A DNA stretch of 27,259 nt. It comes from Candidatus Aenigmatarchaeota archaeon (GTDB lineage: Archaea; EX4484-52; B79-G9). The position numbers and the translations under genes were made by a program. The DNA lies in the NCBI GenBank assembly GCA_023139785.1, contig JAGLMX010000001.1, forward strand, positions 1 through 27,259, in the 5' to 3' direction. Within the stretch, counting starts at the first letter, position 1; every line of letters starts with the position of its first letter. The notes under the pieces were generated by a model. The model saw nothing but the letters and a program-made list of their open reading frames with translations. It ran no database searches and was not told where the DNA came from. Positions 7,028-8,630 of the stretch are shown piece by piece.

Positions 7028-8413
7028 CTACTTTTTTTGCATTAGATAAAGAGTCCGGCAAGAATTTTTATTTTTTACAGATTCTTTTATGCGAAAATTT
7101 GATTTAAATTTTTTCTCAAAAGAGCCTTGCGTGTAATCATGGAAAATGTCTTCTCTATTTAAGAGAAGCCTTTTTACCTGAGAATCTTCTTTTGGTATGA
7201 ACTCAATGATAAGTGTGTTGCACGCTTTGCTGAAGAAATCCGCGATTTTTTCCAGAGGGGTGTTATTGGATATCGCAAGATGATGGAGTAATGCAAGGGC
7301 GATTGCACTGTCTGCGGGCCCTCTTTGCAGTAAAGACAACCTCTCTTTGTTTTCCCAACCAATACCTGGACTGGGATTTGTTATATCAAGAACTGCCGGA
7401 ATGATCTTCTTTTCATTGGACTCTACGCATGCAAGGTAGTTTTTTTCTACCGCAGCATAATCTATATCAAAAGAGATGACTTGGTTGCAAAATCCTGAAG
7501 CTATTCGGCTGAATTCTCCGGTGTTTGCACCAAGATCCCAGATTGTTTTTGATGAAGGGCTTTTTTTTAGGAATGATTTTAGAACTTCTTTTTTATGAGC
7601 AAATGCGGTTTCAGAGTAGTTCGTGGCATCATAATACTCGGCCCATTCGGTTCCTTTTGGACGCCATTTTAGTTTCTCTATTGTTGAGATAAGGTGCTCC
7701 AAAAGACCAAGGAACGAACGCCTGCTTATTCTGTTAGACTTTAGACTTTTGCCTTTATCTGCGAAGTGGTTTTGGCTTTTTGAGTGCAGATGTATGTGTG
7801 ACAGCAGCGAGAGCATACATCGAGTCCGTAGTGGCAGGAGAGTGCTTGCAAGATTCAGTGGAATTCCGTCAAGGTATATTTTTAACAATTGATTTAGCCT
7901 GACATCTTTGTGGCTCATTAGTGCAATGGGGGCAAGAAAATGCTGGCAGAATTGCCTGTAGGCTATCCACGGTTGTCCTTCGCAATACTTTTCAAATGAG
8001 AGTGTGTCAATGAGGAGTGGCTTTCCGTTCACGAATTGTATATTATACGCGCTGGCATCTTTAAGAGACATTTCATATTTAAGTGCTGTTTTTTGTATGT
8101 TGAGCGTTGCCAGTGCAGCATCCTTTAGCTGGCTGAAGCACCACTCATAAGGATAAGATATGAATGGCACAGGTTCTGGCTTTAGTATTTTGTATGCTAA
8201 GTGATCTTTTTTTATTTTTGAAGACATTTCTTCACATTTGACCAACAAGTTAGTGTCAACAAGGGCTGCGTAAAGCCCGGAATTCATCAACATATCGTAG
8301 TTTTCTTTATATTCTTTGTTTACTTGCCGGTAGAGGGTTCTGTCTTCATAGAAAATAAATCCGCTTGAATCACGAAAAGAACTCGGATGGCTTTGTCTAT
8401 TTGTTTTTTTCAT
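7028..8413 (-). CDS. NoeA-like protein: kinase-like N-domain plus C-terminal SAM methyltransferase
   Basis: N-terminal SFRD, ISYPYEW, LKD119ASAYN124 and LLID136; C-terminal WD293LGANTG motif I, SFDID, ALALLHHL. The NoeA resemblance is from memory and needs a search. Confidence 0.75.
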   Translation of the reverse strand: MKKTNRQSHPSSFRDSSGFIFYEDRTLYRQVNKEYKENYDMLMNSGLYAALVDTNLLVKCEEMSSKIKKDHLAYKILKPEPVPFISYPYEWCFSQLKDAALATLNIQKTALKYEMSLKDASAYNIQFVNGKPLLIDTLSFEKYCEGQPWIAYRQFCQHFLAPIALMSHKDVRLNQLLKIYLDGIPLNLASTLLPLRTRCMLSLLSHIHLHSKSQNHFADKGKSLKSNRISRRSFLGLLEHLISTIEKLKWRPKGTEWAEYYDATNYSETAFAHKKEVLKSFLKKSPSSKTIWDLGANTGEFSRIASGFCNQVISFDIDYAAVEKNYLACVESNEKKIIPAVLDITNPSPGIGWENKERLSLLQRGPADSAIALALLHHLAISNNTPLEKIADFFSKACNTLIIEFIPKEDSQVKRLLLNREDIFHDYTQGSFEKKFKSNFRIKESVKNKNSCRTLYLMQKK

Positions 8414-8630
8414 ATCGCTTCCTCATAGAGAACCTGTTTTTTAAAGAAACTTTGAGCTTACTCCAGTATGTTTTGGCTACAAGGAACGCCCCGAACAAAG
8501 ACGCAAGAAGCAATTGGAATATGTAGCTGCCAATACCCGGATCCAAATACGCATGAGCTGTTTTTGGAAAAACAATACAACAGCCGACAAGAAATGCCAC
8601 GAAGGTATTGAGACGCAATGAATATTTCAT
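8397..8630 (-). CDS. Small membrane protein (77 aa): signal peptide, AHA|YLDPG motif, one TM helix, basic tail
   Basis: ATG 8630 gives MKYSLRLNTFVAFLVGCCIVFPKTAHA-YLDPGIGS-YIFQLLLASLFGAFLVA-basic tail. Overlaps the next start (8413), which has an upstream GAGGA SD-like site. Confidence 0.75.
   Translation of the reverse strand: MKYSLRLNTFVAFLVGCCIVFPKTAHAYLDPGIGSYIFQLLLASLFGAFLVAKTYWSKLKVSLKNRFSMRKRYEKNK

What the first reader, a model, noticed from the sequence alone, without database searches (positions are those of the whole stretch)
8397..8630. 77-aa protein whose predicted signal cleavage exposes an N-terminal Tyr (AHA|YLDPG) on one TM helix: possible group-shuttle peptide
Seen: 27-aa signal-like segment ending in A-H-A, then YLDPGIGS, a 17-aa hydrophobic helix and a Lys/Arg-rich tail (N-out, C-in). 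Established: in Dlt-type systems a small single-TM protein (DltX) presents a Tyr-containing motif that serves as a covalent acyl shuttle. Inference: mature Tyr1 (hydroxyl or free amine) lies on the same membrane face as the sulfatase-like catalytic domain and could be a transient carrier or the true acceptor. Caveat: the cytoplasmic kinase cannot reach it directly, so a lipid intermediate or pre-export loading is needed. Genes this small are often missed by annotation.
Basis: partly seen in the sequence, partly recalled or inferred. Interest (0 to 1): 0.7.

Follow-up and report, generated by a model that had tools for sequence, protein, structure and literature searches.

The report
Microprotein partner of NoeA/NoeB cassette
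The 77-codon gene is real and is an archaeal copy of a very widespread but unnamed tiny membrane protein that travels with the unsolved noeA/noeB envelope-modification genes; its tyrosine is invariant, but nothing yet shows that it carries a chemical group.

Summary
Observation confirmed. Window 8397-8630 (-) encodes 77 aa: a signal-like segment ending A-H-A, then YLDPGIGS, one TM helix and a basic tail.

It belongs to a large unnamed family: about 3,200 cluster representatives, no Pfam, NCBIfam or PDB match. In 149 relatives Y28 and Q39 are invariant, and the -1/-3 alanines, D30, G32, G34 and S35 nearly so.

The gene sits directly upstream of a NoeA-type kinase/methyltransferase gene; the stop overlaps that gene's start in 97 of 117 loci (17 nt here). 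A NoeB-type membrane phosphotransferase usually follows. The same ORF lies between nodL and noeA in Sinorhizobium. A 2022 paper recorded a conserved hypothetical neighbour (Lani_1193), probably this protein.

New here:
- Natural fusions of the module to NoeB-like proteins, to cytoplasmic TagF-like enzymes and to a beta-lactamase-like domain.
- About a quarter of homologues lack the signal peptide.
- The cassette looks inserted into an archaeal glycan locus.

Best reading: an N-out/C-in adaptor linking NoeA and NoeB, BcsF-like in logic. The DltX-like Tyr shuttle is untested, and DltX membership fails.

This scan has already found the same family on other DNA at least eight times.

The parts
8397..8630 (-). 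77-aa microprotein gene (ATG 8630, TAG 8397-8399)
   Evidence: homologues
8550..8630 (-). Residues 1-27: Sec-type signal-like segment (n-region +2, 15-aa h-region, P-K-T-A-H-A c-region)
   Evidence: Sequence. In 149 relatives: A at -1 in 141, A at -3 in 114, P at -6 in 95. Cleavage is inferred, not shown.
8526..8549 (-). Residues 28-35: YLDPGIGS, the family signature Y-[IL]-D-P-G-[TS]-G-S, predicted to lie outside the membrane
   Evidence: Y 149/149, D 145, P 138, G 146, G 144, S 146
8475..8525 (-). Residues 36-52: transmembrane helix with a conserved face S35-Q39-A43-G47
   Evidence: Q39 149/149; helical periodicity of conservation, reached by about 1% of shuffles
8400..8474 (-). Residues 53-77: Lys/Arg-rich tail, predicted cytoplasmic, with the conserved pattern K53, W56, I/L59, K60
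   Evidence: In the homologous fusion the helix continues through this region.
8397..8413 (-). 17-nt overlap between the end of the microprotein gene (last codons plus stop) and the start of the NoeA-like gene (translational coupling)
   Evidence: the overlap is conserved in 97 of 117 loci
8652..8664 (-). TATA-like box (TTATAAATATAAA) centred about 28 nt upstream of the ATG; candidate archaeal promoter of a leaderless operon
   Evidence: the genome encodes TBP. Inference only.
7028..8413 (-). NoeA-like protein, 461 aa: atypical kinase-like N-terminal half plus class I SAM methyltransferase
   Evidence: PMC9758233
5479..7017 (-). NoeB-like protein, 512 aa: N-terminal TM domain plus alkaline-phosphatase/sulfatase-superfamily domain
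   Evidence: PF00884, below the curated cut-off

Best explanation
The gene encodes the archaeal copy of the unnamed microprotein of the NoeA/NoeB cassette.

Proposed mechanism:
1. The protein is inserted through Sec and probably cut after A-H-A27. This leaves a 50-residue single-pass protein with eight residues (YLDPGIGS) outside, one TM helix, and an amphipathic basic tail inside.
2. The TM helix packs through its S35-Q39-A43-G47 face against the membrane domain of the NoeB-type phosphotransferase.
3. The cytoplasmic tail holds the soluble NoeA-type kinase/methyltransferase at the membrane. The cytoplasmic and the outward-facing steps of one glycan-decoration pathway are thereby joined.

The logic resembles BcsF in the BcsEFG cellulose-modification module.

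Shown: the gene is real, family membership, invariant residues, gene order and overlap, natural fusions.
Inferred: cleavage, topology, both contacts, and any role of the Tyr beyond structure.
For: - Family and conservation.
- Synteny in NoeA-anchored loci: the small gene lies directly upstream of NoeA-like genes in at least 55 of 69 loci from many phyla.
- Synteny in loci found with the microprotein itself: 68 of 80 metagenome loci.
- Synteny in an unbiased Chloroflexota sample: 10 of 15 places.
- Stop/start overlap with NoeA in 97 of 117 loci.
- Link to NoeB:
  - fusions P0181 and P0183 join module residues 6-43 to a full NoeB-like protein;
  - small-NoeB pairs occur without NoeA (L086, L089, L103, L139, L176);
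  - L115 has a second small gene before a second NoeB paralogue;
  - Q39 is kept in the NoeB fusions but in only 3 of 13 TagF fusions.
- Anchor role: the module is fused N-terminally to cytoplasmic TagF-like enzymes, PF04464. In L113 the free gene precedes a cytoplasmic PPDK-like enzyme.
- A periodic conserved TM face.
- Same operon in Sinorhizobium: nodL, a 71-aa ORF, noeA, noeB.
- Conserved neighbours of the NoeA homologue reported in PMC9758233.
- BcsF precedent: 10.1101/2024.06.05.597511.
Against: - No physical interaction has been shown.
- The AlphaFold2 model of the natural module-NoeB fusion gave pLDDT 41-57 for the module, so no confident packing.
- A plain anchor would not need an invariant eight-residue outside motif. 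That motif stays conserved even where the TM face changes (TagF fusions), so it has a role this model does not explain.
- There is no sequence similarity to BcsF; no Pfam family is hit.
- No module-NoeA fusion was seen among the 33 longer proteins found.
Confidence: 0.55

Rival explanations
1. Covalent shuttle or acceptor. The outward-facing Tyr transiently carries the group (for example a phospho-substituent) that the NoeB-type enzyme moves onto a surface glycan, as DltX carries D-alanine.
For: - The Tyr is invariant in 149 of 149 relatives and is kept in all fusions.
- It is predicted to lie on the same face as the NoeB catalytic domain.
- Like the DltX motif, which is free in Dlt and fused in other MBOAT systems (PMC12148441), this module occurs both free and fused to its presumed enzyme partner.
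Against: - EptA/LtaS-type enzymes use their own Thr nucleophile and need no carrier (general knowledge of the superfamily).
- The motif is equally conserved when fused to cytoplasmic TagF-like enzymes, which cannot reach it.
- Many homologues have residues before the Tyr, so a free amine is not required.
- All DltX-defining features tested fail.
- Asp, Gly and Ser of the motif are nearly as conserved as the Tyr, which fits a structural cap as well.
Confidence: 0.12
2. General outer-leaflet cap or lipid-phosphate binding module. The Y-x-D-P-G-x-G-S loop with the helix N-terminus binds a common ligand at the outer membrane interface, for example the phosphate of a polyprenyl-linked intermediate, or it fixes the N-out topology. 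The module can therefore serve several envelope enzymes.
For: - The motif is the only part conserved across NoeB-associated, TagF-fused and beta-lactamase-fused forms.
- Gly/Ser/Thr/Asp-rich loops commonly cap helices and bind anions (general knowledge).
- The partners seen are envelope or phosphoryl-transfer enzymes.
Against: No ligand is known. It does not explain the conserved stop/start overlap with NoeA, nor the invariant Q39 in the NoeA/NoeB-associated forms.
Confidence: 0.18
3. Uncleaved two-helix hairpin. The first hydrophobic segment is a true TM helix, and P-x-x-A-x-A-Y-x-D-P-G-x-G-S is a conserved tight periplasmic turn, so no N-terminal Tyr is ever exposed.
For: - Published SignalP 6.0 scores for the Legionella Lani_1193 neighbours are only borderline: Sec/SPI 0.08-0.73 (supplement of PMC9758233).
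- Some Chloroflexota forms have G-R-R or G-R-S instead of A-x-A before the Tyr.
- P0009 carries two modules in tandem.
Against: - The -3/-1 Ala with a variable bulky -2 and Pro at -6 is the classical signal-peptidase I pattern.
- Short forms do without the first helix altogether.
- The host has a signal peptidase I.
Confidence: 0.25
4. Not a functional protein: a chance ORF, or only a leader frame that couples translation into the NoeA-like gene.
For: It is short, overlaps the next gene, and has no curated family.
Against: Amino-acid conservation holds across many phyla, with invariant residues and natural domain fusions.
Confidence: 0.01

Closest known systems
Unnamed 71-aa ORF between nodL and noeA on Sinorhizobium/Ensifer pSymA (annotated 'hypothetical protein', WP_011970946.1)
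   Same: It has a signal-like segment ending A-H-A, then YLDPGTGS, one TM helix and a basic tail. It overlaps the noeA start and is followed by noeB. It matches the family profile at E 2e-17 and the window protein at 2.8e-9.
   Different: The host is bacterial and the operon is under a nod box. Position 33 is T rather than I. NoeA is only 33% identical to the window's. No function has been assigned.
Lani_1193 of Legionella anisa, the conserved neighbour of the NoeA-like kinase Lani_1194 (PMC9758233)
   Same: It is a hypothetical protein whose FFAS/HHpred alignments span residues 6-65 and 1-63. It was found in 65% of 816 NoeA-type neighbourhoods, with the NoeB-like Lani_1195 in 38%.
   Different: I could not fetch its sequence, so homology is inferred from position and size. 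The paper gives no motif, topology or role and discusses it as a possible effector.
BcsF of the E. coli BcsEFG cellulose phosphoethanolamine module
   Same: BcsF is a single-pass microprotein with an amphipathic extension and a cytosolic tail that recruits an otherwise soluble protein. It is encoded with an alkaline-phosphatase-superfamily membrane transferase, BcsG.
   Different: There is no sequence similarity and no Y-x-D-P-G-x-G-S motif. BcsF recruits a c-di-GMP sensor, not a kinase/methyltransferase. Any contact of the present protein is unproven.
DltX of the D-alanylation (Dlt) pathway
   Same: It is a membrane microprotein with an invariant Tyr on the outer face, and its motif occurs free or fused to the partner enzyme.
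   Different: The DltX motif is a C-terminal F-x-Y-x-x-F. Its orientation is opposite. Its partners are an MBOAT and an SGNH protein, none of which is in the window. Its chemistry is acyl transfer.

Membership tests
NoeA/NoeB-cassette microprotein (unnamed; S. meliloti 71-aa ORF) | 60-110 aa with Y-[ILV]-D-P-G-x-G-S followed by one TM helix and a basic tail | tested here: met
NoeA/NoeB-cassette microprotein (unnamed; S. meliloti 71-aa ORF) | Significant sequence similarity to other members | tested here: met
   21 hits at E<=1e-10, of which one is the query itself and one is the false positive P0006; S. meliloti ORF: 2e-17 to the profile, 2.8e-9 to the window protein
NoeA/NoeB-cassette microprotein (unnamed; S. 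meliloti 71-aa ORF) | Directly upstream of, on the same strand as, and usually overlapping a NoeA-type kinase/methyltransferase gene | tested here: met
   (17-nt overlap)
NoeA/NoeB-cassette microprotein (unnamed; S. meliloti 71-aa ORF) | NoeB-type alkaline-phosphatase-superfamily membrane protein in the same cassette | tested here: met
   (PF00884 at 1.4e-4, below the curated cut-off); the window's NoeB-like protein, used as query, matches the downstream gene of related cassettes at E down to 4e-114; fusion proteins match it at 1e-29 to 1e-33
DltX acyl-shuttle microprotein | C-terminal F-x-Y-x-x-F hexapeptide with the Tyr near an extracellular C-terminus | tested here: not met
   Here the Tyr is at the N-terminal end of the mature part, the C-terminus is basic and predicted cytoplasmic, and no such hexapeptide is present (definition).
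DltX acyl-shuttle microprotein | MBOAT (DltB-like) and SGNH (DltD-like) partners | tested here: not met
   Neither family is among the Pfam hits of the 25 large ORFs scanned in the window.
DltX acyl-shuttle microprotein | Covalent Tyr intermediate | not testable with these tools
   Needs mass spectrometry.
BcsF | Sequence membership (Pfam model of BcsF) | tested here: not met
   No Pfam family was matched by the protein or consistently by 83 relatives.
BcsF | Recruits a soluble partner through its cytosolic tail | not testable with these tools
   Only gene overlap and fusions to cytoplasmic enzymes hint at this.
Sec signal peptide cut by signal peptidase I | Positive n-region, hydrophobic h-region, small residues at -3 and -1 | tested here: met
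   the enzyme is present in the genome
Sec signal peptide cut by signal peptidase I | Actual cleavage | not testable with these tools
   SignalP is not available here; published scores for the Legionella Lani_1193 neighbours are borderline.
Sortase/exosortase-type sorting signal (motif, TM, basic cluster) | Located at the C-terminus of a secreted passenger protein | tested here: not met
   The module follows the signal peptide directly and has no passenger. In fusions it is N-terminal.

The most novel reading that the evidence does not exclude
The invariant outward-facing Tyr is a covalent relay or primer for a phospho-substituent handled by NoeB-type transferases. That would be a phosphoryl counterpart of the DltX acyl shuttle, and would explain how a cytoplasmic kinase/methyltransferase and an extracytoplasmic transferase are coupled.
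Probability: 0.12. Interest if true: 0.85.

Novelty: new member of a known kind. Interest (0 to 1): 0.5.

Why it matters
noeA and noeB have been known as host-range nodulation genes since 1995 (Ardourel et al., as cited in PMC9758233). Their homologues occur in more than a thousand species, yet I found no paper assigning them a chemistry.

The microprotein is the most tightly linked third component. It has no curated family model. It carries an invariant Tyr and Gln that can be mutated, and it is small enough for top-down mass spectrometry. It therefore offers a direct experimental handle on the pathway.

The fusions found here give testable predictions. The module contacts NoeB. It anchors cytoplasmic enzymes. 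Its outside motif has a role that does not depend on NoeB.

The archaeal copy shows that the whole cassette moves between domains.

Tried and rejected
- Word-index searches found only the protein itself: self only; longer proteins, none. The exhaustive search was needed.
- Matches in related archaeal genomes at E 0.004-0.4 were chance hydrophobic matches; L002, for example, is a polytopic membrane protein.
- P0006, a 3,390-aa leucine-rich-repeat protein with 14 'stretches', is a low-complexity false positive. L101 and L088 are false positives too.
- The motif strings are absent from the searchable literature.
- There is no PDB relative by sequence for the microprotein, NoeA-like or NoeB-like proteins.
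- The protein atlas returned only unnamed clusters.
- Pfam and NCBIfam scans of 83 members gave no consistent family.
- The fold search of the NoeA-like model was dominated by methyltransferases, with WbdD among them. It added nothing on the kinase half, so I rely on PMC9758233 for that.
- AlphaFold2 of the natural fusion P0181 gave low confidence for the module, and no coordinates are returned. Tyr-to-active-site distance could not be measured.
Unbiased contexts came from the genome search and the metagenome scan instead.
- Ardourel et al. 1995 is not held.
- The sorting-signal idea (motif, TM, basic cluster) was rejected because there is no passenger domain.
- The mis-binned-contig idea was rejected because the flanks on both sides match same-genus or same-family genomes.

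Full report
**1. The observation**

The minus strand of window 8397-8630 carries a 77-codon ORF.
- a positively charged start, MKYSLR;
- a 15-residue hydrophobic stretch;
- P-K-T-A-H-A;
- YLDPGIGS;
- 17 hydrophobic residues;
- a 25-residue tail with ten Lys/Arg and one Glu.

The back-translated motif occurs once in the window and in none of 100 shuffles. The stop region overlaps the ATG of the next gene by 17 nt. A TATA-like box lies about 28 nt upstream of the ATG.

The genome encodes TBP, so the host is an archaeon. The assembly is 0.89 Mb and 59% complete. The genome also encodes an archaeal signal peptidase I.

**2. It is a real, widely conserved gene**

Word-index searches found only the protein itself. 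An exhaustive phmmer search of 1.84 billion representatives gave 3,242 hits at E<=1e-3, mostly 60-110 aa. At least one hit is a false positive.

Conservation in 149 close relatives:
- Y28 and Q39 are invariant.
- A27 (-1) is present in 141, A25 (-3) in 114 and P22 (-6) in 95.
- D30 is present in 145, P31 in 138, G32 in 146, G34 in 144, S35 in 146.
- K/R53 is present in 147 and W56 in 137.

Conservation along the TM helix is periodic (S35-Q39-A43-G47). Only about 1% of shuffles reach the observed helical moment.

No curated family or solved structure covers it:
- No Pfam or NCBIfam model matches the protein or, consistently, 83 relatives.
- There is no PDB sequence match.
- Public records call members 'hypothetical protein'.
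- The motif strings are not in the searchable literature.

**3. Context**

The downstream 461-aa protein is a NoeA homologue. It is 33% identical over 98% of its length to S. meliloti NoeA, and 50-62% identical to homologues in many bacterial phyla. Its AlphaFold2 model is confident, with pLDDT 90.

PMC9758233 describes this family (Lani_1194) as an atypical kinase domain fused to a methyltransferase. It reports two conserved neighbours. Lani_1193 is a hypothetical protein whose FFAS/HHpred alignments span about 65 residues, and it was found in 65% of 816 neighbourhoods. Lani_1195 is NoeB, with an alkaline-phosphatase fold, and was found in 38%.

The next window gene, 512 aa, is NoeB-like.

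How often the microprotein gene accompanies NoeA:

| Sample | Result |
|---|---|
| 69 genome loci found with the NoeA-like protein | microprotein gene directly upstream in at least 55 |
| 80 metagenome loci found with the microprotein profile | 68 have NoeA directly downstream; 2 have NoeB directly downstream; 1 has a PPDK-like enzyme; 1 has NoeA and NoeB divergently on the opposite strand; the other 8 end within about 500 nt |
| 151 Chloroflexota genomes | 13 carry it; of 15 places, 10 precede NoeA, 3 precede NoeB directly, 2 are unresolved |

The stop overlaps the NoeA start in 97 of 117 loci.

In S. meliloti 1021 pSymA the same ORF lies between nodL and noeA, with its signal-like segment ending A-H-A followed by YLDPGTGS. 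It matches the profile at E 2e-17. It is annotated 'hypothetical protein' in other Sinorhizobium and Ensifer records. On the Singulisphaera plasmid it is not annotated.

(a) Natural fusions:
- Two proteins (P0181, P0183) join the short form of the module to a complete NoeB-like protein.
- Thirteen join the long form, including A-x-A before the Tyr, to TagF-type CDP-glycerol glycerophosphotransferases. These are cytoplasmic enzymes.
- One (P0168) joins it, through a second TM helix, to a beta-lactamase-like domain.

The Y-x-D-P-G-x-G-S motif is kept in all of them. Q39 is kept in the NoeB fusions but in only 3 of 13 TagF fusions.

(b) Forms without a signal peptide, with 1-17 residues before the Tyr:
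- 14 of 53 in the NoeA-anchored set;
- 11 of 16 in the Chloroflexota sample.

Both forms predict the same N-out/C-in topology. The Tyr is not always the first residue.

(c) Horizontal acquisition. None of 41 other genomes of the host's phylum has the gene. Both flanks match same-genus or same-family genomes at 68-90% DNA identity: window 1-1751, 4989-5371 and 8684-13123. Window 5479-8630 matches nothing there. The three-gene cassette is therefore most likely a horizontal acquisition, inserted into a native archaeal glycan locus.

**5. Mechanism**

I favour an adaptor, at about 0.55. The TM helix packs against NoeB. Support comes from the fusions, the small-NoeB pairs without NoeA, a second small gene before a second NoeB paralogue in L115, and Q39 tracking NoeB. 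The amphipathic basic tail holds NoeA at the membrane. Support comes from the conserved gene overlap, the module's use as an N-terminal anchor of cytoplasmic enzymes, and the tail's conserved pattern.

BcsF, which recruits soluble BcsE next to the BcsG transferase, is the best mechanistic precedent. It is not a relative.

This model leaves the invariant outside motif unexplained. Three further readings address it:
- A general cap or ligand-binding role at the outer leaflet (0.18). This fits the motif's conservation in TagF fusions.
It remains possible but has no positive evidence, and the protein fails every DltX feature that could be tested.
- An uncleaved hairpin (0.25), as an alternative for the anatomy only. 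Published SignalP scores for the Legionella Lani_1193 neighbours are borderline.

**6. Limits**
- Only single chains can be folded, and no coordinates are returned.
- The fold of the natural fusion gave pLDDT 41-57 for the module, so docking is untested.
- I could not read the Lani_1193 sequence. Its identity with this family is inferred from position and size.

**7. Novelty**

The cassette and its small neighbour were recorded bioinformatically in 2022. Earlier reports of this scan describe the same family on other DNA. I reached the same reading independently, before seeing them. This locus is a new, archaeal member of a known but uncharacterised kind. The fusions and the form statistics sharpen what to test.

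Noticed in passing
window 5479-8664: The three-gene cassette (microprotein, NoeA-like, NoeB-like) has no match in 41 other genomes of the host's phylum. Both flanks match same-genus or same-family genomes at 68-90% DNA identity. NoeA is 55-62% identical to bacterial homologues. This looks like a bacterium-to-archaeon transfer into a native glycan locus.
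   Followed up: partly
P0169, P0170, P0180, P0182, P0184-P0192: Thirteen TagF-type CDP-glycerol glycerophosphotransferases carry the module as their N-terminus: a signal-like segment, A-x-A, Y-x-D-P-G-x-G-S, then a TM helix. The Gln of the free microproteins is mostly replaced by Tyr or Ser.
   Followed up: partly
L113:3917-7354: Here the microprotein gene is followed not by NoeA or NoeB but by a 1,023-aa protein with PPDK_N and PEP-utilizer domains, another cytoplasmic phosphoryl-transfer enzyme.
   Followed up: no
L115:1496-5735; L103: Some loci carry a second, weaker microprotein gene directly before a second NoeB-like paralogue, or a microprotein gene between two NoeB-like genes. This suggests one microprotein per NoeB copy.
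   Followed up: no
L090-L092, L102 (Chloroflexota): A variant has G-R-S or G-R-R instead of A-x-A before the Tyr, after a hydrophobic stretch. It has no signal-peptidase site and puts basic residues next to the motif, which fits poorly with the N-out model.
   Followed up: no
L105:2712-2975 (Singulisphaera acidiphila plasmid pSINAC01): The microprotein ORF upstream of the annotated methyltransferase and 'LTA synthase family protein' is missing from the gene table PLSDB distributes for this record. That table can be incomplete.
   Followed up: yes
L014, L023, L163 downstream of NoeA: Where the window's NoeB-like protein found no match, the next gene is still a Sulfatase-family (PF00884) membrane protein of another subfamily. 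The triad is therefore more common than the phmmer counts suggest.
   Followed up: partly
window 8671-11067: The 798-aa LamG-domain protein just upstream is conserved at 73% DNA identity in a genome of the same family (G011). It belongs to the native locus, not to the cassette.
   Followed up: no
window 8652-8664, 11089-11098, 14036-14045: TATA-like boxes lie about 22-32 nt upstream of the ATGs at 8630, 11067 and 14014. This suggests leaderless archaeal transcription units. Not tested against chance.
   Followed up: no
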